DNA of 64,000 nt from Eledone cirrhosa. Its lineage: Eukaryota. The position numbers were made by a program, and so were the translations under genes. Shown here one piece after another: positions 18,595-44,357 of this stretch (positions within the stretch are counted from its first letter, which is position 1; each line of letters opens with the position of its first letter). The notes under the pieces were generated by a model that was not told the origin of the DNA, made no database searches, and worked only from the letters and a program-made list of their open reading frames with translations. Location of the stretch: contig OZ024741.1 of NCBI GenBank assembly GCA_964016885.1, forward strand, positions 268,708,001 through 268,772,000. The letters are read 5' to 3'.

Positions 18595-18975
18595 AATGAT
18601 TGTAGCACCTCCTTGTACACAATGTTCCTTGTTCTTCCGTGTCGGGTATATGCAAAGAGATTTGTCTTGCTTCCCACTCTTGAGAAACCAACATATAGTT
18701 GCCCGTGTGAAAAACATGACCCTTCCAAAAGAGGACCAGCAACAGCTAGGGTCTGACCCTGGGATTGTTGATAGACATTGAAAAGCTGACACGGTTCGGT
18801 GAATGGCTCGTTGGTTGTCTGTTTCAAATGCTCTTCTGGTGGCAGTAATTTCAGCATTTTGTGACTGTCGAATAGCAGATTCCACTGACGATTCGTTTGC
18901 CCTCCTTGTTCTTTTTCTTGCCATTTTCGCAGTATTTCGGCCAATGGAGTATCTCTTCCTCCGAGGCATGGCCTA
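18595..18975 (-). mobile_element. Internally deleted Helitron (RepHel N-terminus joined to helicase C-terminus)
   Basis: MPRRKRYSIGR.. basic N-terminus abuts SQGQTL..CFSHGQLYVGFSRVGS..TRNIVYKEVL (Pif1-like motifs V and VI). Confidence 0.8.
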
Positions 18976-19129
18976 AAAGCAGGACAAAGTACATTAAGAC
19001 TAACTGGTAGAGTAAGGAGTAAACTCCTCAGTGATGCATGTGATTTCCAAGCCGTTGACTATGTAATTGCTGGTCTTGTGCCAAAAGTAGTGGGACTTTT
19101 TGGGTGGCATATCGGCAGTAACAATGATG

Positions 19130-19208
19130 ATAAACCGTCTGTGCTTTCCTGAAATGAATATGTTTGTTTATATTTTGTTTTTGTGTATGCAAAAATATCT
19201 GTACACGA

Positions 19209-19241
<33 letters not shown>

Positions 19242-19769
19242 TAACAGATTAAAGTTTAAGCAAAGAATCACTGCTTTCACCCTTATCGGGATCTTCTGAA
19301 ACTAAAGAAATCGATCTGTGAATGCAGAAGTAAATATTTCGAAAAACGTTGCAACTGAAGGAAAACAGGAAGACGATACTTTGGTTCGTGAAGACGTTCC
19401 CTGGCAATGAACAGAAAATAGCGAAGATAATATGTCAGGAATGAGAACAATGTTTTCATAATGTCGTAATGCAGACAGTCAGACATACAGACAGATATTA
19501 TAAGGGTGCGACGTTATAGCTATGTATCTATCTAAAAAGACAGACTAAGAAAGAGAGAGAGAGAGATCACTAACCAGCGCCTAACACGCCTTTAACAATA
19601 GAAAATTGAAAAATAAAAGCTGCAGTTAGTATCTTTAGACCGCAAGGAATATTTAAATGCAAGTTTGAAGTCAATCGGAGTAGAAATGTGGATTTCTATA
19701 GACTTTGCAAAAATTAGGAGACACACACACACACACACAGATAATTTCAGTTTTATATATATGTATAGA
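19130..19769 (-). mobile_element. Non-autonomous Helitron-like element
   Basis: 5' end A|TCtatacatatatataaaactg. The body is homologous to 36400-37160. Confidence 0.65.
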
Positions 19770-19771
19770 TG

Positions 19772-20346
19772 TAAACCACAGGTAAATGACAAGATATGAT
19801 GCCTATTCACAAAATTTCAGCAAATTTCAATAATATTAAGACATCCTAATGGGGGTTAAACCTCCTATAGTGAAAACTTTGGTCAATAAATGGAACAAGA
19901 TTTCATGAACTCCTCCTATGATTTTGGAGATAGACCCCTGTAATCATATATATTCTGAAACTACATTGCCCAGGGTACTTGGAAGTATATATCATTTTAA
20001 TCAAGGGGTTCCCGGGGGACACAAACCCCCGCTGAAAATTTTTTCCCTTCGATTTATATGAAATTTAAACCATAGGTAAATGACAAGATATGATGCCTAT
20101 TCACAAAAGTTTTGAATTGATATTTTGAAAAAAATTATTTACAAGAAACAAAATAAGAATAAGATTTAATAATGTAATTTTGATTTGATATATTACAAAA
20201 AATAATGTTTTCCAATTTTTCATGCATTACATTTTACATTGAATAATATTGAAATGCAGATAAATTATATCACTGATTTAAAATCAATCATCATTTTCTT
20301 ACAAAAAAAATGTGTGAAACGCAGCAAGGTGCGGGTAATTTGGCTA

Positions 20347-20347
<1 letters not shown>
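19772..20347 (+). mobile_element. Non-autonomous Helitron-like 3' part
   Basis: Ends with a cgca..tgcg hairpin then ggCTAG|T at 20344-20348. Contains an internal direct repeat aggtaaatgacaagatatgatgcctattcacaaaa. Confidence 0.6.
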
Positions 20348-20389
<42 letters not shown>

Positions 20390-20392
<3 letters not shown>

Positions 20393-20568
20393 GTTTCTAC
20401 TATTGGCACAAGGCCAGCAATTACCCAGTACATTACTGGTACTTTATTTTATCGACCCCGTAAGGATGAAAGGGCAAAGTCAACCTCGGCGGGATTTGAA
20501 CTCAGATCGTAAAGGGACGTAACTATGCTGGAAAGCATGGCGTCCGACCCTCTACCGATACTGCCAAT
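20390..20568 (-). mobile_element. tRNA-derived SINE (family A)
   Basis: Reverse complement: ttggcagtatcggtagag (A-box), gagttcaaatcccgcc (B-box), central tttcatccttacggggtcgataaaataaagtaccag (Meta-like domain, from recall), and 3' ttgtgccaa..agaaacaa. Confidence 0.85.
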
Positions 20569-20593
20569 AATGTTATATATATATATATATATA

Positions 20594-21167
20594 TCATCAT
20601 CATCATCATCATCATCATCGTTTAACGTCCATCTTTCACGCTAGCATGGGTTTGGACGGTAATTTTCCCACTTGAGGCAAGATTGGTTGTCTTGCTCGTA
20701 TAGGACTGTCTGGCGGGTTTTCTACAGCTGGATGAACTTCCTAACAACAACCACGTTTACAGCGTGGACTGGGAGTTTTTTACCGTGTTACCTACATGGC
20801 CACATTACAGAGTGGACTGTGTGTTTTTTTGTCGTGACACCTACACGACCTCATTTGTTTCGGACTGGATCTTGTGGTACCAACATAACTTTACATTGGA
20901 TGGGGTGGGGGTAGTGGGGCCGGGGTGTATTTTTGTTAGAGGTGCCTACTGACTGTAGTAGGTTTCACTTTGTACTTAGGTAAGGCGGGTCTTCTGCATT
21001 ACTGTGTAACGCCAAAGATCTCTGTCCAGTGACATTGTCTTGGGGAGGTGTAAGTGTGTGAGGTCGGAATTTATCAAGTCGTCCCAGGTTTTTCTGGGTC
21101 TGCCTACTCCGTGGCTACCATCTATTTTTATCGCCCTGCACTATTTTATACAGCTGTCGTCTTTCAT

Positions 21168-21172
<5 letters not shown>
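20594..21172 (-). mobile_element. 5'-truncated main RTE copy inserted in (TA)n
   Basis: (CAT)n tail, 3' UTR and ORF end (GRPRKTWDDL); (TA)n on both sides. Confidence 0.9.
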
Positions 21173-21204
<32 letters not shown>

Positions 21205-21207
<3 letters not shown>

Positions 21208-21500
21208 GTGTTGTGGAGAGGAGATTGCATTGGTATGGACATGTGATGCATATGAAGGACGATAGCTGTAAAAAAAAGTGCAGGGCAATGAAAATGATGG
21301 AGTGGGTAGACCAAGAAAAACCTGGGATGAGGTGATAAAAACTGATCTTGCTCAATTACACCTCTCTAAGACAATGACACTAGATCGAGACCTTTGGCAC
21401 CATGCAGTTGTACAGAAGACCCGACTGCCATTGCATACATACCTACAGTCAGTAGGCACCTCTTAACCCAATATACACCCCACCCCACACACCCTACCCA
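21205..21500 (+). mobile_element. RTE C-terminal fragment
   Basis: GRPRKTWDEVIKTDL..DRDLW. Confidence 0.85.
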
Positions 21501-21611
21501 GCCATAGGAAACCTGCCAGAAACCGGCAGCAGCACATATAAATGTGTGTATATATATATATACACATACACACATTTGCTTGTTGTATCCCAACAATTTA
21601 AATAGAACTTC

Positions 21612-21653
<42 letters not shown>

Positions 21654-21782
21654 GAAGTTCTATTTAAATTGTTGGGATACAACAAGCAAATATTTTTATA
21701 ACTGATATAAAGCACTCAACAAATTATTGGAGTAAAAATATGATATATTAACAAATGGAAACTATATTTATAAAACCATATT

Positions 21783-21847
21783 TATTTCATTATACGTATT
21801 TCAAGGACACCAAGTTAAATTATGGTGTGCTTTCATCAGATAAAATA
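21783..21847 (-). ncRNA. Minimal type I hammerhead ribozyme
   Basis: Exact reverse complement of 22003-22067. Confidence 0.8.
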
Positions 21848-22002
21848 TAATATAGAGCAGTTTTATAAATAAATATTGACATACCCTTAAAAAATGCAAC
21901 CATTTCTGTTGGAAGCTCCCGGATAGTCCGGGAGCTTCCAACAGAAATGGTCACATTCTTTAAGGGTATGTCAATATTTATTTATAAAACTGCTCTATAT
22001 TA

Positions 22003-22067
22003 TATTTTATCTGATGAAAGCACACCATAATTTAACTTGGTGTCCTTGAAATACGTATAATGAAATA
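22003..22067 (+). ncRNA. Minimal type I hammerhead ribozyme
   Basis: Stem I tattttat/atgaaata, CTGATGA at 22011-22017, stem II aag.acacca/tggtgt.ctt, GAAA at 22048-22051, palindromic TACGTA, then the UA site. Confidence 0.8.
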
Positions 22068-22112
22068 AATATGGTTTTATAAATATAGTTTCCATTTGTT
22101 AATATATCGTAT

Positions 22113-22548
22113 CATCATCATCATCATCATCATCAACGTTTAACGTCCGTGTTCCACGCTTGCATGGGTTTGGACGGGGGTAGTCCCACTTGAGGCAAGA
22201 GTGATTGTCTTGCTCGCATAGGACTGTCTGGCAGGTTTTCTACAGTTGGATGCCCTTCCTAACACCAACCACATTTACAGTGTGGGTCTGGGAGGTTTTT
22301 ACCGTGTTGCCTACACGGCCACATTACAGCGTGGACTGTGTGTTTTTTTGTCGTGACACCTACACGATCTCATTTGTTTCGGCCTCGATGGCGCGGCACC
22401 AACATAACTTCACATAGAACGGGGTGGTGTGGATGGGGTGGGGGTGGTGGTGGGACGGGGTGTATTTTGTTAGAGATGCCTACTGGCTGGAGTAGGTTTT
22501 ACTATATATTTAGGTAAGGCGGGTCTTCTCTGTTACTGAGTACCGCCA
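22113..22548 (-). mobile_element. 5'-truncated young copy of the main RTE
   Basis: Nearly identical to 58832-59249, with a (CAT)n tail. Confidence 0.9.
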
Positions 22549-22699
22549 TATATATATATATATATATGTATATATGTGAGTGTGTGTGTGTATATATATA
22601 CGTGTGTGTGTGTGTTTGTATGTATGTATGTATATATATGTGAGTGTGTGTGTGTGTATATATATGTGTGTGTGTATATATGTATATGTGTGTGTGTAT

Positions 22700-22744
<45 letters not shown>

Positions 22745-24656
22745 CCGTACGAGTGAGACATGGTCTCCCGACCATTCTCACATCAAATGGAACAAAACCG
22801 TCTAACCCATGCTAGCGTGGAAGATGGATGTTAAACGATGATGATATATATGTATATATACACGTGTGTGTATATATATATATATATATGCACATATGTA
22901 CATACACACTAATTTACTAATTTAGGGTATCACACTTTATATGTATGTATGATGCTTGTCTCTCAGTTGAAAAGCTTTGTAGATGTATCATATATAATAC
23001 AATGTGTTTCTCAAACAATATATGGCTTTTTGTTTCTATATACTATCATCATTCTTATTTCACTCTTTCCATGCTTGCATGGCTTAAACAAGTCCTTTGC
23101 AACTCAGTGGCCCTCCACCCATCCTTTCCTCTGCTCATGTCTTCCTCAGCCTATCTTTATCACATCTTCCTTCCACTCAGAATTTCTCCTGGCACTTCTT
23201 TACCCAACAATCATTATCCATGCACATTATGTACCTATACTTCAGTGCAATCTTTTCTCTTGCACACTACATCTGATACCTCTCAAACCCTACCCTGTTT
23301 TTCTTGCAACTCATCAATGTTTCACTATATATGTATACTCACATTACACATCTAACACAGCATGCAGGATTCATTTTTTTCTAGCTTCTCATCTTCCACA
23401 CATCCTCTACATTCAATGGCCAAACCCACCCTGTTTTCCCCCTCAACTTATCAGTGCTTTGCAACATGCTTGATTTGTTTCTTTCTAGCTTCTAAACTTC
23501 AACACATCTACATTCGATGTCCACTGATATATTTTATTGAATATATTTATTGACAATGTAACCTTGTAGATTAAATTTGGAGATAATATTTATCCACCAC
23601 AATATAGCAAATGACTTAATTTCATTGTCAATATATATTAGTGGCTCATTTTCCCATATATTTTTATCTTTATAGTTGTAAATTAAACAAGATGGTTACA
23701 TTAAATTTCCAAGCCATAGCTTATAGGTGTCATAGAATTTTGTCATGTTCACCAGGTTATACCTGTCATTACCATGTATATACATTTGTGTATAAGTTGT
23801 ACCATTTTCCATGAAAATACTATGTGAAAACCTAGCAGGTGACTTAGCTATAGGACTTATGAAACCTGAATTCAAAATATATGGTACATTGTATATAAAA
23901 TGGAAGAGCAACTTATATATAAGGATATCTTCTATCAATATGTTTATAATTGCTTACTCTATAGAACGTTCTGGTTTGAAGCTAGAAGACAAATTCTCCC
24001 ATTGATTCTGTCAACAATATTGTTAAGTAGTTTCTTCTTCGTTTCACAATTCTTATTTGAAACAGTCAATAAATATAGAAATGACTAGAAAATAGGGTTT
24101 GAAGTTGTTTGAGAGAAATTTCCTTTGAAATACGTATTCTTTCATCTTGAATCAAGTATTTTTATTCCTCCTTCCATAATGGCAGGGGTGGGGTGCGTGT
24201 TTATCATGCTAACGTGTGTGTGTTTGTGCATCAATAAACTATAGTTGAAGTAGAATTGAATCCTAAGGAAATCCAGATGATGTTGATAATGGAAGTGTAT
24301 CTATTCTAAGAATGCTGATAGGAAAAGAAGGCTTAAAGACTGAGCTAATTATAGAAAAATGTACCATAGGTCATTGTTTAATTACTGTATATACTTGTAT
24401 ATAAGCTAAGAAATATGTGATAATAAAATTGGGTGTCGGCTTATATTCAAGATAAGTGCAAAACTGTCAGGTTAATCAACAATTATTTTTTTTTAAAGAG
24501 AATTATTTAGAGTAGGTTTACACAAGATTCTTCAAAGGGTTTTTGAGCTCTTTTGTTTCATTAACCCTTTTGATACCAACCCACCCAAAATGAGCTTGAT
24601 CTATGAAACAAAACCACCCATTTTAAAGGGTTCCTATTTAAATTGAAATCTTTGAA

Positions 24657-24707
<51 letters not shown>

Positions 24708-24944
24708 CAACTATATGTTAAGTTAATATCTTAGAAATGAAATAATTAATAATTTTTGTAAATCACTTGTGTGATAATTGGAAACACCCGTTCTTCAATA
24801 TTTATAGATAAGGGAAAATGGAAATTATTCATTTATAATTAATTTTAACTAAACAGTTCTTATAATTGATTAAATAATTTTTACATTTCCAAATAACACT
24901 TGTTTCTCGTGTATGTTGTTTCCAATGGGAAACAACATACACGA

Positions 24945-25099
24945 GGCATAGCTGTGTGGTTAGGACATTCACTTTGCAATCTTGTGTTTTTCAGGGTTTT
25001 TCTCACTGCATAACATTTTTGGCAAGTATCTTCTACTATAGCTGCACATTAACCAATGATTTCTGAGTGAAATTGGTAGTCAGAAACTCTATGAATGCC

Positions 25100-25100
<1 letters not shown>
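24945..25100 (+). mobile_element. tRNA-derived SINE (family B), diverged
   Basis: ggcatagctgtgtggttagg head and ggcaagtatcttctactatagc core. Related copies lie at about 25990-26130 (+) and 33450-33610 (-). Confidence 0.6.
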
Positions 25101-25140
<40 letters not shown>

Positions 25141-25444
25141 ATTTCACATTTGGCTTTGCTAGTGCTGATGGTGACATTTATTTATGTCCCACATAAAAAG
25201 AAGTCTTATAGCTCAGCAGAAATGAAGTAAGGTTTGGTATCAGGAAGACTTCTGCCCACAAAAGTCTCAGCTGATTCATGCTAGCATGGAAAAATGGTGG
25301 CGCTGATGATGTTGTTAATGGGGGAGTTAGTGGTGGCAGTGGCGGTGGTGATTGTGATGGTGGCAACGATTAATTGTATGTTGCCAACATTTGAAAAAAA
25401 CTTATCAAGTAATTTAGGTAGAAAGCTTCTCACTTTGATTTCAT

Positions 25445-25725
25445 CTCATTATTACTAGTGTTTGTTGCTGTTGTTCTTGTTACTGCTGTTCCTGTTGCTG
25501 TTGTTAAGGTTGTTATTGTTACTGTTGTGGTTAAGGTTGTTACTGTTGTTGTTGCTGTTGTTATGGTTGTTACTGTTACTGTTGTCATGTTTGTTGCTGT
25601 CGTGATTGTTGTTAAGGTTATTATTGTTACTGTTGTTGTCGTGGTTGTTGTTGTTACTGTTGTTGTCATGTTTGTTGCTGTCGTGGTTGTTGTTAACTTT
25701 GTTGCTGTCGTGGTTGTTGTTAACT
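25445..25725. repeat. Degenerate (GTT)n-derived tandem repeat
   Basis: Direct reading. Confidence 0.9.
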
Positions 25726-26383
25726 TTGAGACAATTATTATAACTGTGTTTTTTGATATCTTAAGTAGGTAGTTGAGATTTTGGTCAGTGTAAAAATAAA
25801 AAAAGAGAGGTTATATATTTTTTTCTTATTGTTATTGTGTTAACCTACTTTCACAGTCAATTGATAAACTGTAACTTGAAGCAGTAACCAAATGTTTAGC
25901 ATATCAAAACTAATTAGAAATAATTTTAACTGAAATCTTACCCTTCCAACACAACTTTATGATAAATAACCATATAACTTGGCTGACTAGTTAATGAGTT
26001 TGCATTGCAACCATATGGTTTCAAGTTAAGTCCCACTGTGTGACACACAAAGGGTTCCTCTACTAAGACCTCAACTTGTCTCGTGTCTTTCTTGTGAATG
26101 AAATTTGGTTGACAGAAACTTTGAGGGAATGTATATATATGCACATATATAGAAACTACGTAATATGACAGCTGCAACTTGATAACGTCTTTCTTCCCCA
26201 TTAAGTGGTCATTGTGGTCTGTTTGCGTAAGTTGGGTTTGGGTGAATGGGTGGCCTGCATTTGATTTGCCGAATTAGAGGGTAAGTATGGTTTGTTTGGC
26301 GAGAGTCATGGGTACAGATTGGTGTTTATTTTAGGGTGTTTGTTGAGGGTTAGTAGACTGATTGGAGCAATAACGGTCTTGTT

Positions 26384-26440
<57 letters not shown>

Positions 26441-26444
26441 CACC

Positions 26445-26790
26445 GCAGTAATACAGAAGACCCGACTTCCCATGGGTACAAACCGAAGCTGAAAAACATA
26501 GACAGTATGCCCCCCCCCCCCCACTCTAAAGTGACCGTGTAGATGTCATGACAAAAAAGCACCCAGTCCACACTGTCAAGTGGTCATGTAGGCGCCATGG
26601 TAAAAAGCACCCAGCACTCACTGTAAATGAGGTTGGTGTTAAGAAGGGCGTCCAGCTGTAGAAATCAAGCCAAAATCAGTTCTGTATGGGCAAGACATGG
26701 TCACCTGACCTGGCATTGCCGATAACAGGACAACCAATCTAACCGATGTTAGCATGGAAGAATGGACATAAAACTGTGATGATGATGATG
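26445..26790 (+). mobile_element. RTE 3' UTR/tail copy
   Basis: aatacagaagacccgac...ggttggtgttaagaagggcgtccagc...catggaagaatggac..gatgatgat. Confidence 0.75.
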
Positions 26791-26794
26791 ATCA

Positions 26795-28230
26795 CCATCA
26801 GCATCATTTTATGTCAGCTTTTCTATTGTTTCAGACGTTGGACAAGTCTTTTCCAGCACATTATTCCTTCACTTAGCATGATCCTTAATTATGTCCTGTG
26901 TGAGCTTTAGCTATATTTGACCAGTTCTCACAACTTCCTCCTAGGTCTTCATTGTTCTTTCTCTTCTGCAGCTTCTTTCCACTTGGATTTCTTGGCACTT
27001 CTTCAATTAATGGTCATCATCCATATGCCTTACATCTCCATACAATTCTTTTTCATTCTTTGCTTTCTTTTCTCCTGTACACTACATCTAATTCCTCTTA
27101 TTCCCAGTTTTTCTCTCAGCTTATCGATACTTTTCATTCATGCACATCAACATTGTACATTTGTCGAAGCATGCTCACTTCATTCTTTTACAGTCCTCAC
27201 ATATCCTCTACATTGACTACCAATGTGTTATTACCATGCAACATTGCACACAGCTGGTCTTTCATTTGTAGAGAGAAACCTTTTGTTGTCAACAGAGGTA
27301 ATAGCTCCCTGAACCTTTCCATCCTGTCCTTATTCTCGCTACTCTGCTCCCAGAGAAACCTTTTCCACTGTTAATTCGGTTATTGAGATAGTAGAAGCTA
27401 TCAACTACTGTTATGGATCATTCCTGGGATTGGAAAAAGTTATTATACTGATGCTCTTACGACCAACTCTCCCTGTACATCTACTATACACAAAGCCTCC
27501 CTTTTCTGTTAATCTGCCTGCTTTACCACTACATCTCTTGTGCATCCAAGATTTATGTGGTGTATATCTTGTACAGCTTCTACCTACTCCTTTTCTATAT
27601 ATCGAGCAGGGCCACTTCCCTGAAGGGATATGTTTCCTTCCCTACTTACTAAAATTTTAGTTATTCCTAAGTTTACTCTAAGCCCATTAGATTCTAATTT
27701 CTGTTTCCAATGGCAGAATTTCTTCTCCCACTTTACCATGGATTCAACTATAAGAACCAAGTCATCAGCATAGAGAAGTTTCCATGGACATTGAATTTGA
27801 AACTCCTCTGTTATGGCCTGGAGAACTATAATAAACACGAGTGCACTGAGGACTGAGCCCTGATGAACACTTACCTGCACATTGATTTGTTCACTAAACT
27901 TATTACCTAGTTTCACTTTATTGACAACTCCACTGCACATCACTTGTACTGCTTTCACAAGCTATTCTATATCTAATTTCCTTAGGGACCACGAAATCTA
28001 GATATAGAGGCTTACACTGAACTAGGAACTTTCCTTGTAGTTGTATCTCTAAGAAGAAAGTATTTGTGGTGCTCCTCCCTGGCATAAAACCAAACTGTAT
28101 CTCATCTAATTTAAGCCTTTCTCTAATTATCTGTGCTGAAACTGTCACTTTCATAACTTATCCATTAGTTTAATGTCTTTGTAGTTGCTCCTTTCCAAAG
28201 CATTACCTTATCTCTTGTTGTAGTTAATGG
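26795..28230 (-). mobile_element. Old degenerate RTE LINE (RT to 3' end)
   Basis: QFGFMPGRST, VHQGSVLS, LLYADDL and GLRVNLGITK, with many disruptions. Confidence 0.88.
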
Positions 28231-29329
28231 TTTTGTGGTTTAGTATCAAAAAGGTTAAGTAGAAATGTAACTACAGCTGCCACTGCCAGTTGATTAGGAT
28301 TTTGTAGTATGTGCTATGCTTTCGCAAAAGGGTTTCAGTGCCCATGCAGTTGCAAGCACACGCATAAACCCTCTCTCCCTTGATACAGAAGCACATCCAG
28401 GATATAACAGCTGGAAAGTGGGAAGTTTGCACTTGCACTGGGTTGATGCTTTCTTTATCAAACAAATGTTCTACACAAAAACATACAAAAAAACCTATAG
28501 CTGTAACTTGCAATCCAGTATGATTTGGTGGTATGTACCATGCTTTTGCTAAGGGTTTTTGGTATCTCTGAAGGCATGAGGCAACATAAACACCCTTTGA
28601 CACAGTGGAACATTCAGAATGTGACAGCTGGAAGGAGTGACAGTTGCATAAGTACTAGGTTGGTGCTTCCTTTATCGACCTTGACAAGATGTGAACCCAG
28701 AATGCAGAGACCCGGAATAAATAAGCATTGCTCTAATGACTCTGTGAAATCAACCACCTAAGTAGAGATGTAAGGAGCTAATTTATTGACAAAAGATACT
28801 GAAAACTCTTCTTCTCTGTAGCAAAACAACAACAGCACTGATGCTGACCACCACCACCACCTTAACAACAACTATAACTATTTCTAGTCTGTCATTCTCC
28901 CCTGATAATACTGTGTTATAGTACTGCTCTATTGATTTATAGCTGTTTCTCTGCCAGATCACATAATTTTAACTATATCTCAACTACACTGAAAACACTT
29001 CTGCTCTTTAGAAACTGTCTACAACACCTGCCCACCCATATTCACACACCTTCTACAAAATTGCATTGTCTTTTTTTTTTTGGTTTTTCAATTGAATAAT
29101 CTTTATTGGTTAAACCTTAGCTAGACTTTGCCATTTCTAATCCCTCCCCTCCACTCCACTTCTTATGTTTCAACTATCTTCTCTCCTCACTTATCTGTTA
29201 TTGTCATTACTGTGTCATCGCCTCTGTTTCTTATCGTTACATCACATTTTATCTCATTGTTGCTTTTAACTGATTGACATAACACATAATGAAGTGTAGC
29301 ACGTGAAGGAGACCATGTTGATGCATCAT

Positions 29330-29446
29330 ATCTATATATATTTATTTATCTATCTATCTAACTATCTATCTATCTATCTATCTGTCTGTCTGTCTGTCTG
29401 GCTGTCTTTATCTAATTATCTAACTGTTCATCTATCTATCTATCTA

Positions 29447-29477
<31 letters not shown>

Positions 29478-29512
29478 TTATCTAATTATCTAACTGTTCA
29501 TCTATCTATCTG

Positions 29513-29607
<95 letters not shown>

Positions 29608-29616
29608 GTCTATCTA
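29330..29616. repeat. (TATC)n/(TGTC)n microsatellite
   Basis: Direct reading. Confidence 0.95.
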
Positions 29617-31792
29617 TTGAGGAAGGGCGAGAACAAGGGGGACGATATAAATAATTTCAGGCCCATAACTCTGCTAAATACAGAGTTACAGATTTTGGCC
29701 AAGGTGCTAGCAAAGAGGTTGGCGCTTGTCGTGGGCAACCTGGTGGGAGATGCGCAGACATGTGCTATCCCGTCCAGGTCCATCCACGATAACCTCCACC
29801 TCATGCGATACATCATAGAGAGGGTTGGGAACGAACCCGGCTTTGGTGGGGCCCTGATCAACTTGGATCAATCTAAGGCATTCGATAGGGTCGACCATGG
29901 TTACCTGGATGCGGTGCTAGCGGCGGCAGGCTTCGGACCCGTTTTCAGGGGCTGGATCAATGCCATGCACAGCAGCCGCATCTGCTCTAGGGTCAAGGTG
30001 AACGGCTACCTCTCGGAGCCGTTCGAAATCGCGCGGTCCATCCGACAGGGGTGCCCTCTCTCCTCCCTTCTGTATGTAGTGACTCTAGAGCCACTGCTGC
30101 AAAAGTTGGAGTTGTTGCAGGGCATCCCGTTGGAACCGGGATTGCGGAAAGCGGTGTCAGCCTACGCCGATGACGTAACAGTAATGGTGTCGACGGCCTC
30201 GGAAATCGGGGCGATCGGCACCTTACTGGAGGAGTACGAAAGGTTTACAGGGGCTAAGGTGAACCGGGACAAGTCGATCGGTCTGCAACTCGGCACGTGG
30301 AGGGGCAGATCGATGCCCTCCGATGGCGTCGTCGGGCGCTGAACGGAGGGCCCGGTGAAATTGCTCGGGGTCTGGTTCGGACCAGACCTCCAGGTGGAGA
30401 AGAACTGGGGTGAGGTGACGAGCAGGGTGTTTGCACTGACCCAGAAGTGGGCCGAGTGCAAACTGTCCCTGAAAGGTCAGGCGGAAGTGGCGAACACTTA
30501 TATAGCGTCCGTCATCTACTACCTTGCCCAAGGGAAACGCTCGCCAAAATGGAGCAAGCACTCTTCCAATTCCTTTGGAAGAAGCGGGCTCCTATGGTGA
30601 GGAGATCCATCTGCTGTCAACACCCTTCGAAAGGAGGGCTGGGGATGCTGTGGCTGATGATACGTAAACACGCATTAAGGCTATGGCACCTTCAGGTATT
30701 CCTCTCCGGTCAACCGGTGTGGGCCCCGTTTGTGAGGCGAGCCTTTCCCAGACTCGTCTCACTCACCGAGCTGCAATCCTGGGTCAAGCAAAGACCGAGA
30801 AAACTGGGCGCCTGGCACACCGAGTGTGCCCAGGCGCTCACGGCTCTCTGGCAGGCGGACCCGGCTGTCAGTGGAGAATCCACCTCGTCATTCTATAGAG
30901 GGCTGGTGGTTAGCAGGTGCGACGACGCCCTCGGAGAAGCCCTAGGCATGGAGGAAGACGAACTGGCCAACCTGTTCGGTAGGACATTCAGCCCGGGACC
31001 CATGGATAACTTCCAGAGGTCCCTGGCCTGGCAATGCTACAGAAGGGCTCTGCCCGTTCGAGAAAGGCTCTACAGACACGGGCGCCCGGGTAGGGACCCA
31101 TCGAAAAAGGTCTGTCCCAGACGCGTGTGTGACGAGGAAACCGTTGCACACGCATTGGTACACTGCTCGGGCATTGCCGATCTGTGGGGCTATGTCGAAC
31201 AACTGCTGTCAAGGGTGGGACCGATCCGGTTGACCACCGAGTCTATTGTAACGATCAAGCCGCCTCCCCTCTTCAAAAACGAAGGAGAGGCGGTGTTTCT
31301 GTGCGTAATAGCCATGGCAAAAGAGGTTGTATGGTGGACGTGTCTGAAAGGACTGAGGTCAGACACCTTTCTCTCTGGCCAACAACTGGTCCGTTTCTTC
31401 CGATATCATTTCGGAAGAAGGATCAGGATGGAGAGAGAGGTGCTGCACCCCAGCCGTTTCTATGAAAGATGGGTGAAAGTGGCGAGAATGGCCCGTGTGA
31501 ATGGGCCTTCACTCTACATCAGACTATAGGTGAGGAAGATGAAAGACCAAGGGAGCACCCCTTCTCTGAGCTCCTGAGGAGAAGGGTTGCACACTTTTTT
31601 CGGGGGTGTGTGCGACCCCCCAAGGCGCCTCCTCTCTATTGAGGACTTTGTTATAAATTTTATTTTTTGTTATATTTTATTTTATTTTTATATATTGTTA
31701 TTGCCTCCTCCTTATTGAGGACGCCTTGTTTTGTAAACTCCCCCCATTGTACTTGTCCCACTTTTGATGCCCTGGTGGCAAATAAAAGAAAC
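29617..31792 (+). mobile_element. Tx1/L1-clade LINE ORF2 (RT plus zf-RVT-like C-terminus), 5'-truncated and disrupted
   Basis: NFRPITLLNTE, LDQSKAFDRVDH, IRQGCPLS, AYADDV, GGLGM and C..C..EET..H...HC. There is a stop at 30340 and a frameshift near 30520. The 3' aataaaagaaac runs into (TATC)n. Confidence 0.92.
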
Positions 31793-31917
31793 ATATCTAT
31801 CTGTCTATCTATCTATCTATCTGTCTATCTATCTGTCTGTCTATCTGTCTATCTATCTGTCTATCTATCTGTCTATCTATCTGTCTATCTATCTATCTAT
31901 CTATCTAACTGTCTGTG

Positions 31918-31989
<72 letters not shown>

Positions 31990-32017
31990 ACTGTCTGTGC
32001 CCATCTATCTATCTATT

Positions 32018-32640
32018 ACCGTCTTGCACGCAATTGTACACTGCCCGGGCGTAACCAACCTGTGGAACTACGCAGAACAACTGCTGTCCCGTATGGGACA
32101 AATCCAGTTGACTGCCGAGTCCATAGTAAGGATCAAACCGCCAACCTCTTTCAAAAACGAAAGACAGGCGGTTTTCTTCTGTACAGTGGCTATGGTGAAA
32201 GAGGTTATATGGTGGACGAGATTGAGAGGACCGAGGACAGATGCCTTTATCTCCGGGCAACAACTCATTCCCTTCTTTAGGTACCACTTTAGAAGGAGAA
32301 TCAGAGTGGAGAGAGAGGCACTGCACCCCAGTAAATTTACTGAAAGGTGGGTGAATGTGGCAAAAATGGCCCGAGTGATTGGGTCTTCTGTATATAAACC
32401 TGTAGGTTGAAGAAGAGAGCAAAAGGAAGAAGGGAGCACTTGCACAACACGCTCCTGAAGTTGAGGGTTGTTCTATCGACGGGGGTATTAAACAACCCAT
32501 TTGTGGAGCCTCCCCCCTATTGGGGATTTCAATTGTTTAATTTGTTTGTTTCAATATTTTTACACGATTGTATGTAAAATCCCTGCATGTCTTTGTTTTG
32601 TCCCCGTTTCTTGTGCGCCCTTGTGGCAAATAAAGAAATC
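32018..32640 (+). mobile_element. Second, related Tx1-clade 3' fragment in (TATC)n
   Basis: [32 protein letters not shown], paralogous to 31140-31530; ends aataaagaaa followed by tctatcta. Confidence 0.88.
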
Positions 32641-33139
32641 TATCTATCTATCTATCTATTGATTGATCTGTCCAAAATCTTTGAAGATGGTACCCCAGCA
32701 TGGCCGTAGTCTAATAACTGAAGCTAGTACAGCAACAAAAAACAAAAAAACAACTATACTTTTCTTTTAGAAATCATCTCATTATAAACAAGAAAGATAT
32801 TTTAGGGAAACTTTAGTGATAAATAACAGTAGCATGTTTCTATGCAAAATCACATTGAAAGAATGTACATTTGATGTTTATAGATAGACTGTTGTATTTT
32901 TATCTCAATTCTTCCCCCTTCTCTAATTCAATGTTTATTTTTTCATATTTCAAAGTTTAAATTTATAAGTCTACCTGTTTTTCTATGTCAGATTGTTGCT
33001 AGAATACATAGCAACTGTTTCCATTAACATCTCCATATGCTTCAATACACATTAACAATTACAACACTTTCATACAACTTCTACTGTTTTCTTGCTTTTT
33101 TTTCCTCTTGCCTTATCTGTAGAGAAATATCTGCTTTTG

Positions 33140-33425
33140 CTCTTTTACTGGTTTCTGTAATTGGAATGTGGCCATGCTGGGGCATCATTTTAAATGGTTT
33201 AATCAACCGGTATTTGCTTTTCAAGTTTGGTAGTTATTTCATCGATCTCTGCTGAACTGCTAAATTTTTATAGATATATTTATTTGTGCTCTTTTACTGG
33301 TTTCTGCCATACTGGATCACCACCTTAAATGATTTAGTCAATCAGTATTTGCTTTTTTTTCTTTTTAAATTTGGTACTTCTTTCATTAATCTCTGTTTAT
33401 CAAAGTGCTAATTTACAGGACATAT
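33140..33425 (-). mobile_element. Tandem SINE 3' remnants
   Basis: Two copies of ctcttttactggtttctg..ggccat.ctgg; related pieces at about 32680-32730 and 34260-34445. Confidence 0.5.
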
Positions 33426-35418
33426 ACAAACAAATATGACATGAATGCATGCATATATACATCCACATAGTTTCCATCTATCAAATTTCACCCATAAGAC
33501 ATTGGTTAGTCCGATGTTGTAGTAGAGGACACTTATCCAAGGTTCCATGCTGTGGGACGAAACCAAACTCCATATGGTTGTGAAATGAACTTCTTAACCA
33601 CACAGTTATCCCTATAACCTATAATGTAACTTCATTCATTTTATACACTTTACATTTTAAAACTGAAATATTGATGTATATTTCAGTGTAGAAAATGGTA
33701 ACATTATACCAATTATCAACTATGTTTGAAGTGTTTTATTTGAAGGCTACTACAATGGTAATTGGACAGTAAATGTTAAAATATGACAATAAGAATGATG
33801 TTGGGATGTTAGCTTACAGTTCTTTATATGTCCTCATATTTTGGGATAAAATTCCCTCATCAAAAGAATAATTAAGGAAACTTATTCAGACCTGTCATTT
33901 TTAAGCTGCCATCTTTGTTCACTCTGAATTAGTTTTCCCAATAAATCTTTTGATGAAAGGATTTTATATAATTAGAAAGTAAGTTATGTTACTAAATCTC
34001 TCTAATATCTTGATCTTCTTCTTGGTTAGATATAGTCACGGTTCTGTGGCTCTGATACTGTAGATTTGGATGGAAGATGAGAACTCCACTATTCAGGTGT
34101 GGCACCAAAAATAATTGCACGTGTGGGTGTGATCATTTCTTGATGATTTTCAAAATGATTTGAAAATTGTATTCTGTCTTTCTTTAGATATATGATAAAG
34201 AAAGGGTTAAGATGGTTGAAACAAATTCAACTTTGAGGATATGACAATATTCTTATATTCTTTTACTGATTACACTCATTGAATTGTGGCCAAGCTTGTA
34301 TGCCACCTTAAAGGGTTTAGTTGATCATCTCAATGTCAGTACTTACTTTTAAGTTTTGCAACTATTTTATTGATTTTTATTTGTGACTGAACTGTTAAAT
34401 TATGTGACATATAAAGAAATAACACTGGTTGTCAAATGGTGTCAACCTAATATACAAACCTGGATGAATACACAGTTTTTAACATCAGTACAAGGACAGG
34501 AATTTGGAGGGATTGTGGGGAACAATTGATGATAGCAACCCTAATGTTGACTGATGACATGAATCCTAGTAGTTGCTTCTTCTTTTTCTTCTTCTTCTCC
34601 TTCACCCACTTATTCCTGCTGTGGCCTAGTAGTAGGTATTAGAAATGGCCGAGATCATTGTCTGAGGTTCATTTCCTGAAGGATGAAAATCGTAGGTGAC
34701 CATAGTAAAGAGCTGGAACAGATACTGCAAGGCATTTTTTTCCTGATGCTCTAATGATTATACCACCCTAAATCCATAAACAATAATGTTTCTTTATAAA
34801 TTATTACAGTAATAACGATTGTCTCTTCTCTGACTTTAAAACTATTGTGTGCAATTACCGTTTTATATTATTATTATTATTATTCTATTATCAAAATGTT
34901 TAATATTTAAAATTGCTAACTCCTGAAGATGATTCATCAGTAGATTTGTAGAGATTGTTATTAAATCAGTCTCACCAATCTGTGCCAAACACAGCATTAT
35001 TTGATAGGTTTTGAATAGATGATTATTGTGCTCTATTTAATTATTCAACTATGAAGTTCATGATAGCTTTTATGCTAGACACTTTCTGGCATTATTCATG
35101 TTTCACAATCAATTTAGCTGACAACTTCCAAATTAAGAAGATGAATCATTCTAGTTGACACTGACAAGGCTTTCTCCATTTCCACATTCTCTCAACTCTG
35201 GTGCACCCTCCAAAATTTGGGTTACGCCTCTCACACTTGCCACACTGGCTTCTTTTTTAACCATCTACATACAGAGCATTGTCCACATGTGACCATGGCA
35301 ATTCATAGCAGACATGCATTGCTTCAATAATGAATAGGTACTTAATGAGGGCACAGCAAACTTGTTGCCTCCAACTGCACAAATTGACATATCTTCAACT
35401 CATTTTGTTTTTTTCATA

Positions 35419-35953
35419 AAACCTGGGACGATCTGATAAATTCCGACCTTACACACTTGCACTTCTCTAAGACAATGTCACTGGACCGAGATCTTTGGCG
35501 CTACGCTGTAATACAGAAGACCTGCCTTGCCTATGTACAAAGCGAGACCTACAGTCAGTAGGCACATCCTAACCAAATATACAACCCAATCCACTACCCC
35601 TACCCTATTCTCCCACTCCTACCCTCTCTCTGTAAAGTTGGTACCACAACATCCAGTCCAAATAAATGAGATAAATGAGATCGAGATCGTGTAGGTGTCA
35701 CAACAAAAAAAACAAAAATAAAACACAGTCCACGCTCTAATGTGGCCTTGTAGGTAACACAGTAAAAAGCTCCCAGTTCCACACTGTAAATGTGGTTGGT
35801 GTTAGGAAGGGCATCCAGCCATAGAAAGCCTGCCAGATAGTCCTATATGAGCGAGACACGGTCACCCGACCAACCTTGCCTCAAGTGGCCAACTCCCGTC
35901 TAACCCATGGTAGCATGGAAGATGGACGTTAAACGACGATGATGATGATGATG
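35419..35953 (+). mobile_element. 5'-truncated main RTE copy
   Basis: aaacctgggacgatctgataaattccgac...cgttaaacgacgatgatgat. Confidence 0.88.
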
Positions 35954-35954
35954 A

Positions 35955-36314
35955 AAGGTTACAGGCCCTAACGCAACCAAAATGCTTTAAAAAATTGGTT
36001 TTTCGCCTAATGCGGACCCTGGGGCAAAAAATAAGAAAATCTTTTTTGCTCAAAACACTTTAAACGACATAAGTAATGCAAATTTTGAACAAATCGTCTG
36101 GATTATTGTTCCGTTATGCCTCAAAAAAGCCTTTAAAGCCTAAAATATGCAATTTTTTGTCTAATGCGGTCCTAGGGCATTGAAAATTTGAATATTTTTT
36201 GCTCAAATCACACACGACCATAAGTATTACATGTGTAAAGTTTGAAAAAAATCGGTTGGGTAGTTCTTGAGTTTTAGGGAGACAGACAGACATTCTCTGT
36301 TTTAGATATATAGA
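35955..36314 (-). mobile_element. Non-autonomous Helitron-like 5' part
   Basis: 5' TCtatatatctaaaacagagaatgtctgtctg, identical to the terminus at 37341. Confidence 0.65.
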
Positions 36315-36317
36315 TAA

Positions 36318-37341
<1,024 letters not shown>

Positions 37342-37478
37342 TAATAGTAAAAAGTCGAAGAAAAATTATTAATTTTTACATACATATTTTGAAAGGAAAG
37401 TTCATAACTCTGTCCGTGTTTGTCCTTGTTTCTCTGTTAGTAAGCTAACAGGAGTAGCAGTTTTGATTTTTATATATA

Positions 37479-37928
37479 CTAGCAGAAAAACCACCCTTCG
37501 GGTGGTTTTCTGCTAGCGTGTGTAGTGTGTATATTGATATTATACACAAGTATATGTGATATATCAAATAAAATCGTAATTGACAATATACACAGAAATT
37601 GAACGAAGACTGTTACACTGTCTTATGTAATCAGTAATGATGCATTAAAAAAAGACGATATTATATATAAACTGCATTAGGAGAAAATTAATGACAGAAA
37701 TATATGAATGTTTATTTAAATGATCGCTAACCGGAAGTATTGACATTTGAAAATTTTAAAGAAGTGAATCTTTAAATAAGTAATAACATATATTTATTGA
37801 ACAGCCACAAAATTTAGTAGATAAATTATGTGATATTCATTCATTATTTATTCAAAGTAATCCAACTTATTTTACTAATGGGATAAAAAATTATAAACTG
37901 TACGCACTCCCACGCTCCTTACTTTATT

Positions 37929-37935
<7 letters not shown>
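37479..37935 (-). mobile_element. Helitron-like element with terminal hairpin
   Basis: ctagcagaaaaaccaccc ttc gggtggttttctgctag palindrome ending CTAG|T on the minus strand. Confidence 0.45.
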
Positions 37936-37973
<38 letters not shown>

Positions 37974-38324
37974 TATAATAAAGTAACCCATAACTCTTGG
38001 TGGAGTCTTAGACGCATGTAATGTTTCTTGGACATTTTGTACATAGCAGAGTACATCTCCATAGCTGATTTGTTATATATATATAAACCTATCTCAGTAC
38101 TGGACTGGTAGCTTTTTATTAACCTCGAATCAATGAAAGGCAAAGTTGACCTCAGAGATCCAGAACTAATGCCACAAAGCATTCTATCTGACATTTTAAT
38201 GGCTTTGCCAATTTGCTGCCATACGAGTATCTAAAAATCTCACTCTTTTTAATAAATCTCACTCTTTTAATAATTCTACAATCACCTGGATTGAACAGAA
38301 AACACTGTTGTTTTCCATTAGAAT

Positions 38325-38785
38325 TTACTAATTAAGGTAAACGCGAACCATTAATTATAGGTGAACACTAACAATTAATTATAGGTGAGCACTAACAATT
38401 AATAATAGATAGCATGTAAAAAGTAATTATACATAATCATTAACAGTTTACTGATTATAGGTAAACACTAATAACCAAATTATAGGTAAACACTAATAAC
38501 CAAATTATAGGTGAACACTAACAACTAACACAGAAAAATAATTACAGGTGAACACTAACAATTAATTATAGGTAAACACTAGCAATTAATCATAGGTGAA
38601 CCCTAACAATTAATTACAGGTAAACACTAACAATTAAACTAACAATTATAGGTAAACACTAACATTTAATTATATGTAAACACTAACATTTAATTACAGG
38701 TGAACACTAACGTTTAATTACAGATGAACACTAACGTTTAATTACAGATGAACACTAACGTTTAATTACAGGTGAACACTAACAG
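38325..38785 (+). repeat. About 24-nt minisatellite (aggtRaacACTAACaatTAATtaY), about 16 ACTAAY motifs
   Basis: Direct reading. Units are degenerate at the 5' end and more homogeneous at the 3' end. Confidence 0.9.
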
Positions 38786-38861
38786 ATTGTTATGAAATGA
38801 ATTTTTGTTACTCTTCTTTTTTCATAAAACATTTGTTGAAATATAATTTTGTTCTTTTCAG

Positions 38862-38885
38862 GTGGAAAAAACCATTGGCAAGAGG
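38862..38885 (+). other. Candidate 24-nt frame-preserving microexon of an unidentified host gene
   Basis: Acceptor ttttgttcttttcag, donor G|gtgagt, about 75-nt AG-free zone upstream, and an ACTAAC branch-like motif at 38778. Confidence 0.5.
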
Positions 38886-39009
38886 GTGAGTTAAATAAAT
38901 TTGTAGTTTCACATGACATACTGACAAATGGCTCTAGTGGATCCTTATAACGACATATTGTACAAAATATAATTTAGAGATATATCAGATGAAAGAATGG
39001 TATGGATAG

Positions 39010-39300
39010 GGTGTTCAGCTCACAATCATGAAGTAGTGAGTTTCCCAGACTGGATGGCACATTTGTAACCTTGAGAAAGTTGCTTTATTTCACTCATTTA
39101 GCAAGCAAAAAAAAAAAGAAAAGTTTTACCTGTAATTCAAAGGGCTTACATTGTCACATATAGTGATATGCTGAATCTCCCTGAAAACAATGTTATGGGT
39201 GCATGTGTCTGTAAAATGCTCAGCCGCTTACACATTAATTTCACAAGTAGGCAGTTCCATTGATTGAATCAGCTGGAGCACTCATCATCCTTTAGACAAA
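39010..39300 (+). mobile_element. Diverged SINE (family C)
   Basis: tRNA-like head ctcacaatcatgaagtagtgagtt and body gctgaatctccctgaaaac..ctcagcc.cttacacattaatttcacaag. Confidence 0.5.
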
Positions 39301-41304
39301 CTAACAAACGGACTTTGATCTATCATGTTTCTACTAATTAGTTGTTTTAATTAAATATTTCAAGTTTTGAGATGAGTAATTGTAATTAAGATATTTTTTT
39401 ACAGCAGTTATTATCTTCATCTTTAGAGCAGATGTTGTTTACATTACATATCAACAAGGTGTTTATTTTTTGAATAGCTGTATGGGCAGGCCAAAACAGA
39501 GGTTCAGTCCAGTGGAGAAGGATGGGCAGGCCAAAACAGAGGTTAGGACCAGGGGAGAAAGATGGGAAGGCCAAAACATTACACGTACACTATATATACA
39601 TGCACATGTATACTACATGATGTGTACTTCTATTTCCAAATAAATTGATGTAAGAACTCATTATGAACACTTATTCTCCACTATATATATATATAGTAAA
39701 AATGAGACCAGTAATCATCATCATTATCATTTAACGTCTGTTTTCCCTGCCAGCAAAGGTTGGACGGGGGTCGTCATCTGTGGATACAGTAGGGAGAAAT
39801 GATCTTTAACCGTTTTCATTTCCATATTTCAAATGACATGCACTGTATTTCATTTAATTAGTGAGGAATTTAGAGGTAGTTACTAAAATTATTCATTATT
39901 TTCATCATTTTCATTAGGATAGCAATAAGTTGGTTGATTGGCAGATAAAATGTTTGGTACTGTTCGTCTGAGTTCAAATACCACAGAGGTCATCTTTACC
40001 GTTCATCTCTCCGAGGTCGATAACATATAGCACCAGTCAAGTACTGGGGCCCATTTAACTGCCCTCCTCCTCTAAAGAAAATCATTGTCGGTTTTGTGCC
40101 TAAATTTGAAAACTTTAAGATAACATTTGTTATAAATGGTTCTTAGATAAAATTGAGTTGGAAGGTTTTAAAATTTAAATAGGAATCTTTTATAATGGGT
40201 CGTTTCGTGTCATAGAACCAGAGGTGGTTTTGGATGGGTTGGTATTGAAAGGGTTAAAAAGCACAGGAACACAGGGTTGGGTAGGATACGAGGGATTGAA
40301 TATACATTGTTTAAACTTTTTTGTGGAAGGTAGGTTGGTGGGTGGATGGGTAAATAGTTTGGTAGGTGGGTGGGTTGTTATAAGGTCGGCAGATTGGTGG
40401 TTACATAAGGTATGTAGGTAGGTGGCTGAGTAGGTGTGGTGGTCAGCATATATTGGAATAATCAGCGTTTTTTAAAAATTTTTTTATTGTTTACTACTTG
40501 CAATAAATACTGCAAGACAATGAAACGATGCTGTAACAGATGTGAGGTTAACATGTTTGTTGTTGTCATCACTGTCACCATTGTCACCATGAGCTGTACA
40601 AGACTATTTTTAAGGGAGTATTTCAACAGCTGGTAGCCCTTCCTTACGTCAACCATCGTCTTTTTTGGTTCCACTGATCTTCACATGCCAAACTGCTAAG
40701 CTGCTTCCCAAATGGTGTAAATGTGAAGACCAGACCTGTCGCCAGGTTTTGATAGGGGGTAGGGTGGGAAGGAGGGAGCTTCAGAACATTCTGGGGGTGG
40801 GGGCACACACTGATATGACAGGGACTTTTTGAAACTGTTTGTTTGGCTAACTTTGTTTGTTGTATTTTTATTTTATTTTTTGTTCTTTGTTTTGAGAAGA
40901 AACGTCAGTAAAGTTATGACTTCAAGTAACATACGAATCTTTCAGAGTATTTAAAAATATATATAAATTTTTATCTTCAAAATTTGAGAGTGTACATTTG
41001 TAAAGTTTTAGTGGTGGTGGTGGTGGTGGTGGTGGAGGTGGTGGGAAATGACCCCCACCCCCCCACTTCCCTGACCGGTCCACTGAAGAGACATACACGT
41101 ACTTTCCAACTACTGAATTTAACAACCAAAGCATTGGTCAGCTCAAAGCTATATATATATATATGTACACACGCACACACACAAACATACACTCTCACAC
41201 TCATACTGTAGTGCATATTTGGTATAAATGTCCAAGGGTTAGAGCACTCAGTCTATAAGGCGTGTTAAGTAACGTTAGTTACAACAGTAACATGTACAGG
41301 TACT

Positions 41305-44357
<3,053 letters not shown>

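What the first reader, a model, noticed from the sequence alone, without database searches (positions are those of the whole stretch)
38325..38891. Tandem array of splice-signal / Quaking-element units directly upstream of a candidate microexon
Seen: about 24-nt units, each with ACTAAC, then TAAT a few nt later, then YAG|GTRA, giving about 16 ACTAAY copies, all on the + strand. The array is followed by an about 75-nt AG-free stretch, tttcag, 24 nt, and gtgagt. Known: ACUAAY-N1-20-UAAY is the bipartite STAR/Quaking element, ACUAAC is the branch-point/SF1 motif, and AG|GT is the recursive splice-site signature. Inferred: the minisatellite acts as a multivalent QKI/SF1 platform or decoy branch-point array that controls tissue-specific inclusion of an 8-codon microexon, possibly tuned by copy number.
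Basis: partly seen in the sequence, partly recalled or inferred. Interest (0 to 1): 0.72.

Follow-up and report, generated by a model that had tools for sequence, protein, structure and literature searches.

The report
Branch-point array before estrogen-receptor microexon
In an octopus-like animal, a single-copy run of about 19 short repeats carrying 16 branch-point-type words lies directly ahead of a likely 24-letter optional exon of the estrogen-receptor gene; the last repeat likely supplies that exon's branch point, and the extra copies would bind Quaking-type proteins that likely dampen its use.

Summary
In detail: 16 ACTAAY on the + strand (38327-38783), 13 with a TAAY half-site, then 74 AG-free bases, tttcag, 24 nt, gtgagt. 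The host is the + strand estrogen receptor (ER/NR3) gene. The window lies in a 320-kb stretch between a large phase-2 exon and the phase-2 A/B exon. The 24-nt exon is open in that frame and has the strongest splice-site pair of 82 short candidates, though 3 of 40 simulated introns match its score. The last ACTAAC sits at the edge of the AG-free zone, as a distant branch point would. A Quaking/How gene is present. Against a selected device: ACTAAC satellites are common in this genome, a distant mollusc ER lacks both array and exon, and the AG|GT copies are weak acceptors. No RNA was available. Best reading: a real microexon whose branch-point 24-mer was tandemly amplified and likely binds STAR proteins (0.4). 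Rivals are passenger copies or a pseudo-exon. The scan noted a minisatellite supplying a branch point before, in this genome's RUVBL1 intron. Side finds: a conserved ER 5' exon with a CtBP-type motif, and a TT splice donor.

The parts
38327..38783 (+). 24-nt minisatellite, about 19 units, 16 ACTAAY of which 13 are bipartite Quaking-type elements; older, more degenerate units 5', more uniform units 3'
   Evidence: exact 21-mer found only here in the genome (5 of 5 hits); single-copy depth
38778..38783 (+). last ACTAAC, predicted distant branch point (A at 38782, 79 nt from the acceptor G; the only AG between lies 3 nt after it)
   Evidence: use as branch point is inferred
38786..38859 (+). 74-nt AG exclusion zone, 64% pyrimidine, one CTCT, no TGC
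38856..38861 (+). 3' splice site tttcag, score 7.6 (real ER acceptors 2.4-7.4)
   Evidence: simple home-made site model
38862..38885 (+). candidate 24-nt cassette exon of the estrogen receptor gene, phase 2-2, reads WKKPLAR between two split glycine codons; single-copy
   Evidence: use in mRNA not shown
38886..38891 (+). 5' splice site gtgagt, score 6.4 (seven real ER donors -3.1 to 8.7)
1..64000 (+). whole window lies inside the 320-kb stretch between the large 5' exon (L039:2024-3605, about 86 kb before the window) and the ER A/B exon (L051:2751-3106, about 170 kb after it); predicted intron
   Evidence: same exon order and phases in L076

Best explanation
The array is a single-copy 24-base minisatellite on the sense strand of the estrogen-receptor gene, directly upstream of a likely real, frame-preserving 24-nt cassette exon whose distant branch point is likely the array's last ACTAAC, and the other copies would bind the Quaking/How protein in competition with SF1 and so likely lower inclusion of the exon where How is abundant. 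Shown: the sequence anatomy, host gene, strand, frame fit, single-copy state and presence of a Quaking/How-type gene. Inferred: that the large 5' exon splices to the A/B exon, that the microexon is used, branch-point use, STAR binding and the direction of the effect. The array most likely arose by ordinary local tandem amplification of the 24 bases around the branch point; selection for it is not shown.
For: Host and strand: ER exons on + (zf-C4; best PDB hit 4n1y estrogen receptor, E 4.6e-20; DBD matches the snail and limpet ER rows in a supplement of PMC4388693). Frame: the upstream donor ends in phase 2 and the A/B acceptor starts in phase 2; both joins, with and without the 24-nt exon, are stop-free. 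The same phases hold in a distant mollusc-like ER locus, L076. Exon strength: rank 1 of 367 acceptor-donor pairs in 464 kb and top of 82 short pairs over both strands of three regions. Geometry: the last ACTAAC is at the 5' edge of a 74-nt AG-free zone, as for distant-branch-point exons (PMC1431707, abstract). Of 55 genome-wide ACTAAC/short-exon pattern matches only this one has more than 5 ACTAAY upstream, and 7 of 55 lack an AG between motif and acceptor. In 11 full-length units the 10 ACTAAC/TAAT columns carry 2 changes against 6 in 7 non-motif columns (P about 0.06). Trans factor present. Precedents: tandem ACUAAC before RAI14 exon 11 (PMC13004596, passages); CUAAC repeats and ASD-2 in unc-60 (PMC3469465, passages).
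Against: No RNA evidence could be obtained. 3 of 40 Markov-simulated introns give a short pair scoring as high. L076 shows no matching exon and only 5 scattered ACTAAY in its 4.6-kb intron; no cephalopod genome could be compared. ACTAAC-periodic repeats are common: 141,423 triple matches genome-wide against 35,030 control, 954 double Quaking-type matches against 50. Two further arrays of 21 and about 267 copies lie within the 654 kb read, and a 31-mer Quaking-type array lies on C12; none of the three is followed by a comparable acceptor on reading by eye. The ACTAAC plus short-exon pattern is not enriched genome-wide (29 vs 46 and 26 vs 26 control). The QKI/SF1 motif in mammals is enriched 20-60 nt from the acceptor; here the nearest copy is at 79-83 nt. 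The column test is not significant and left out the irregular units.
Confidence: 0.4

Rival explanations
1. The microexon is real and uses the last ACTAAC (or a nearer weak site) as branch point, but the other copies are passengers of an ordinary minisatellite; inclusion is set by other factors, for example the neural eMIC/Srrm234 programme.
For: ACTAAC satellites are common and occur without exons. The long AG-free zone, CUAAY branch point and CUCU fit part of the fly neural-microexon code (PMC8797185 section 10). An earlier scan note describes the same last-copy arrangement in RUVBL1 (e1-10331069, not checked).
Against: 13 intact bipartite elements on the sense strand within 540 nt of the acceptor would be strong STAR-protein sites whether selected or not (inference); weak excess conservation of motif columns. 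No UGC near the acceptor, and the acceptor is strong, unlike fly eMIC exons.
Confidence: 0.25
2. The 24-nt piece is a pseudo-exon that is never or rarely spliced, and the array is neutral repeat DNA that lies beside it by chance in a 320-kb intron.
For: 3 of 40 simulated introns reach the same score; no counterpart in L076; no genome-wide excess of the pattern. At about 3 large arrays per 1.3 Mb of strand, one chance neighbour among a genome's microexon-like sites is plausible (own arithmetic).
Against: It needs several independent fits at once: top score, length 3n, open in the one required frame, 74-nt AG-free zone, consensus branch word at its edge. The intron's + strand has 4 short pairs scoring 11 or more against 0 on its - strand and a simulated mean of 1.3.
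Confidence: 0.25
3. The AG|GT units serve as recursive (zero-length) splice points for the long intron, or the donor at 38886 closes an alternative first exon with the array acting as a promoter element and an in-frame ATG at 38797.
For: Very long intron; array donors match the U1 consensus at 5-8 of 11 positions, like real ER donors (4-9); one unit shares 13 bases with the real acceptor of the first zinc-finger exon; a stop-free frame with an ATG runs into the exon; L076 has a phase-2 ATG-bearing exon candidate at 6812/6834-6889.
Against: Array AGs lack a pyrimidine tract (scores -4.1 to 2.7); AG|GT is broken in 3 units, all among the five nearest the exon; the upstream frame is the pyrimidine tract itself; no CpG-rich stretch was flagged near 38 kb.
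Confidence: 0.1

Closest known systems
Human/mouse RAI14 exon 11: QKI-SF1 competition for tandem ACUAAC branch sites (PMC13004596; search listing and passages read)
   Same: Several ACUAAC upstream of a cassette exon, any of which could be a branch point; a STAR protein able to bind them is encoded.
   Different: Two copies at 34 and 43 nt there, tested by minigene and binding; here 16 copies at 79-535 nt in a minisatellite, a 24-nt exon, a mollusc, and nothing tested on RNA.
C. elegans unc-60 intron 1A CUAAC repeats bound by ASD-2 with SUP-12 (PMC3469465; passages read)
   Same: Repeated CUAAC upstream of an acceptor in an invertebrate; muscle-type STAR protein represses the acceptor.
   Different: A few conserved repeats in a short intron with a UGUGUG partner site; here a long tandem array in a 320-kb intron, conservation not shown.
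Distant-branch-point exons with long AG exclusion zones (PMC1431707; abstract read)
   Same: Consensus branch word at the 5' edge of a long AG-free zone ahead of a short, probably alternative exon.
   Different: The branch word here is the last unit of a tandem repeat; branch use is not shown.
Fly eMIC/Srrm234 neural microexons (PMC8797185; section 10 read)
   Same: Short exon, long AG exclusion zone, CUAAY branch word, a CUCU.
   Different: No UGC near the acceptor, strong rather than weak acceptor, very long rather than short introns.
Amphioxus 'mirages', minisatellite duplications of intron-exon boundaries (PMC3087553; abstract read)
   Same: Minisatellite beside a splice site whose unit carries splice-like words.
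   Different: The unit here does not copy the neighbouring exon edge; it copies the branch-point region and stops 78 nt before the acceptor.

Membership tests
QKI/SF1 branch-point competition exons (RAI14 type) | Two or more ACUAAY upstream of a cassette exon on the sense strand | tested here: met
   16 copies on +, host gene on +
QKI/SF1 branch-point competition exons (RAI14 type) | ACUAA within about 20-60 nt of the 3' splice site | tested here: not met
   nearest copy starts 83 nt before the exon; window
QKI/SF1 branch-point competition exons (RAI14 type) | A Quaking/How-type STAR protein is encoded | tested here: met
   PF16544 hit at C9:33303362, closest solved structures GLD-1 and Quaking
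QKI/SF1 branch-point competition exons (RAI14 type) | [quoted passage not shown] | not testable with these tools
   no RNA run available for this organism
Distant-branch-point exons | AG exclusion zone well over 40 nt with a branch consensus at its 5' edge | tested here: met
   74 nt; ACTAAC with A at -79
Distant-branch-point exons | Lariat maps to that adenosine | not testable with these tools
   needs lariat RT-PCR or sequencing
eMIC/Srrm234 neural microexons | UGC close to the 3' splice site and a weak 3' splice site | tested here: not met
   no TGC in the last 60 nt; acceptor scores above all nine real ER acceptors; features
eMIC/Srrm234 neural microexons | Long AG exclusion zone, CUAAY branch word, UCUC-type tract | tested here: met
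   (one CTCT only)
eMIC/Srrm234 neural microexons | eMIC-bearing Srrm gene present | tested here: inconclusive
   PF15230 found nothing here or in the controls
Recursive splice sites (AG|GT ratchet points) | Strong pyrimidine-tract acceptor fused to a strong donor | tested here: not met
   13 array sites score -4.1 to 2.7 as acceptors and 1.0 to 4.9 as donors
Mirage minisatellites | Unit is a copy of the adjacent exon-intron boundary | tested here: not met
   unit and microexon acceptor share only CAGGTG; array ends 78 nt upstream
Dispersed transposon-borne repeat | Many copies elsewhere in the genome | tested here: not met
   exact 21-mer only here; array depth 2-11 against thousands in flanking repeats; only 66-71% look-alikes at two other loci

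The most novel reading that the evidence does not exclude
A variable-number minisatellite made of the exon's own branch point acts as a dial: its copy number sets how much Quaking/How is loaded and so how often an 8-residue basic insert enters the N-terminal region of the octopod estrogen receptor, in a long isoform that starts with a mollusc-wide exon carrying a CtBP-type corepressor motif. That would be a heritable, repeat-tuned, tissue-specific switch on a receptor known as a ligand-independent activator.
Probability: 0.15. Interest if true: 0.75.

Novelty: new variant of a known kind. Interest (0 to 1): 0.48.

Why it matters
Mollusc estrogen receptors are described as constitutive (abstract listing of PMC3886901), so their control must come from expression and isoform choice. 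A microexon under a 16-copy branch-point/Quaking array would be a concrete, testable control point. It would also be an extreme natural case of the QKI-SF1 competition shown in mammals with only two copies. If the copies are passengers, it still shows how minisatellite growth at a branch point is tolerated. The work also places an apparently unlinked octopus ORF upstream of ER as a probable long first coding exon.

Tried and rejected
No RNA holder was listed for the region; this is no evidence either way. RAD-seq runs did not cover the array, and the microexon bin had no contig cover. Pfam on 76 window ORFs found transposon-type domains (RT, endonuclease, PHD) and a few weak sub-threshold hits, no host exon. 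Homologue searches for a long protein with the large exon and with the A/B exon found nothing, so no database ER N-terminus could be checked for the 7-residue peptide. The representative search gave only P0002 and one weak hit. Atlas hits were all under 0.9. A full-text search for three short peptides found 0 papers. Supplements of PMC4388693, PMC4070562, PMC11345136, PMC9493083, PMC3886901 and PMC9699675 gave no full-length mollusc ER (picture PDFs and one large file not searched). I first read the large exon as a separate gene because three homologues end at 'G-stop'. I rejected that after L076 showed the same read-through into a phase-2 donor upstream of ER exons. An LCoR/E93-type host was considered: the nearest HTH_psq hits lie about 480 kb upstream of the large exon. 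No special RNA fold over the exon (z 0.77). The column test had its classes shifted by one base and was redone. Scan look-ups by place, relatives, sequence and one word set gave nothing.

Full report
Observation. The array is real and as described. There are 16 ACTAAY on the + strand from 38327 to 38783, in a period-24 repeat of about 19 units. 13 of the 16 have a TAAY half-site 1-20 nt downstream. YAG|GTR stands 12 times in the array and is broken in three units. After the last ACTAAC come an AG 3 nt past the predicted branch A, 74 AG-free bases, tttcag, 24 nt and gtgagt. Short-read contigs of one sample match most of the array without a difference and at single-copy depth. The exact 21-mer occurs only here (5 of 5 hits), and the tract plus exon is single-copy.

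Host gene. The window is G000:C2:268708001-268772000 of a 3.0-Gb genome. It holds no host exon that Pfam recognises. In 654 kb around it exon prediction found, on the + strand, a nuclear receptor: A/B exon at window-extended 233751-234106, zinc-finger exons at 271480 and 275229, hinge at 282036, ligand-domain exons at 285086, 286185, 289908 and 301135. Pfam gives zf-C4. The best solved-structure hit is 4n1y, estrogen receptor (that it is the oyster protein is recalled). The DNA-binding domain matches the snail and limpet ER rows, not ERR, in a supplement of PMC4388693. A 1.58-kb exon 86 kb before the window (L039:2024-3605) is 91-92% identical to Octopus sinensis and O. bimaculoides proteins that are recorded as stand-alone, so the animal is octopod-like. 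Those records and an unnamed homologue all stop one residue after the point where this exon has a phase-2 donor. A marine-metagenome contig, L076, found with that alignment, carries a homologous exon (same start motif, 68% over 22 residues). It too runs into a phase-2 donor and a stop, 4.6 kb upstream of a phase-2 A/B acceptor and the ER zinc-finger, hinge and ligand exons. I infer that the large exon belongs to ER and that the window lies in a 320-kb ER intron. The join itself is not shown.

Is the microexon real? It is 24 nt, and in the phase-2 frame that both neighbours need it reads WKKPLAR without a stop; joins with and without it stay open. With a simple home-made site model its acceptor (7.6) beats all nine real ER acceptors (2.4-7.4), and its donor (6.4) is within their range. 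It ranks first of 367 pairs in 464 kb and first of 82 short pairs over both strands of three regions. But 3 of 40 simulated introns of the same composition give a pair as good. L076 shows no similar exon, no similar peptide and only 5 scattered ACTAAY in the matching intron. No database ER N-terminus could be retrieved. I put the exon at about 0.7.

What does the array do? The last ACTAAC lies at the 5' edge of the AG-free zone, the layout of distant-branch-point exons (PMC1431707, abstract). Any earlier copy has an array AG 5-37 nt downstream, so only the last copy leads cleanly to the microexon acceptor. The array AG|GT sites are weak acceptors, which speaks against recursive splicing. A Quaking/How-type gene is present. 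Tandem ACUAAC ahead of an acceptor is known to bind QKI against SF1 and cause skipping (PMC13004596, passages), and CUAAC repeats bind ASD-2 to repress an acceptor in worm muscle (PMC3469465, passages). Thirteen intact bipartite elements on the sense strand would therefore likely load How and lower inclusion; this is inference. Motif columns change less than others across 11 full-length units (2 changes in 10 columns against 6 in 7; P about 0.06; irregular units left out).

Against a selected device. ACTAAC-periodic repeats are abundant in this genome (141,423 triple matches against 35,030 control; 954 double Quaking-type matches against 50). Two other large arrays lie within the 654 kb on the - strand, and a Quaking-type 31-mer array lies on C12; none is followed by a comparable acceptor by eye. 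The narrow ACTAAC/short-exon pattern is not enriched over its control (29 vs 46; 26 vs 26), and this locus is the only one of 55 with a large array: a one-off, not a programme. The mammalian motif is enriched at 20-60 nt, nearer than here. The fly neural-microexon code fits in part (AG-free zone, CUAAY) but not in UGC or acceptor strength (PMC8797185 section 10).

Verdict. Most likely a real ER microexon whose branch-point 24-mer was amplified by ordinary minisatellite growth and now likely binds STAR proteins (0.40). Rivals: passenger copies (0.25), pseudo-exon (0.25), recursive or first-exon use (0.10). It works like RAI14 exon 11 and unc-60 intron 1A but fails the distance feature of the former and is untested on RNA, so it is filed as a new variant of a known kind. 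Ten literature searches (listings and abstract starts only, except where stated) showed no paper on a mollusc ER microexon or on such an array. The original octopus ER paper was not held. The closed supplements of bioRxiv 10.64898/2026.09.05.749416 (2 passages read; includes O. bimaculoides exon data) and an unsearched file of PMC9699675 may bear on whether the exon is known. PMC12965858 was read in passages and added only the NR3D naming.

Noticed in passing
L039:2024-3605 (G000:C2:268620024-268621605) and L076:2599-3674: A large exon recorded as a stand-alone octopus protein has a conserved phase-2 donor and lies upstream of the ER A/B exon in two distant molluscs. It starts with a basic MPPPKKPK motif and carries PFDLT or PHDLS (CtBP-type motif, label recalled). 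It would give a long ER isoform with a possible corepressor site.
   Followed up: partly
L054:2185-2336 (window-extended 286185-286336): The second ligand-domain exon of ER joins the next exon in frame only through a donor reading TTAAGT instead of GTAAGT; the GT four bases on brings an in-frame stop. Contigs of 3 runs of one sample show the same letters, so it is not an assembly error: a natural TT donor or a truncating allele.
   Followed up: partly
window-extended 88132-88149, 111558-111569, 118344-118361 (+): Three more short exon candidates of 18, 12 and 18 nt score 11.0-11.2 in the same intron; the first two are open in phase 2 and the first holds an ATG. None has an ACTAAY in the 300 nt upstream.
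   Followed up: partly
window-extended 271467-271481 (L052): The real acceptor of the first zinc-finger exon shares 13 consecutive bases with the array unit.
   Followed up: no
G000:C11:35412030-35414870 (L002-L010): A long 24-mer array 66-71% like this one lies antisense in an intron of a leucine-rich-repeat gene (read by eye; SHOC2-like, label recalled), directly after a donor, with short inverted repeats at both ends; on the gene's strand it reads as complements of a 5' splice site.
   Followed up: no
window-extended -103304 to -92141 (- strand) and 415450-416051 (- strand); G000:C12:46499030-46499557: Three other ACTAAC-bearing repeats: a 37-mer of about 301 copies just upstream of the large exon, a 21-copy CAC/ACTAAC run, and a 31-mer with ACTAAC-N2-TAAC; none is followed by an evident acceptor.
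   Followed up: partly
L076:6812-6889: A phase-2, ATG-bearing exon candidate (56 or 78 nt) between the large exon and the A/B exon of the second mollusc, possibly an alternative start for a short ER.
   Followed up: no
window 4287-5180, 14756-15582, 17280-18348, 27587-27961, 29494-31529, 55782-58408: Fragments of LINE-type retroelements (reverse transcriptase, endonuclease, PHD finger) on both strands; Helitron-like pieces (read by eye) just upstream of the window.
   Followed up: no
window 41306-44357, 45468-48507, 59248-62965: Very long TA-rich microsatellite runs of 1-3.7 kb.
   Followed up: no
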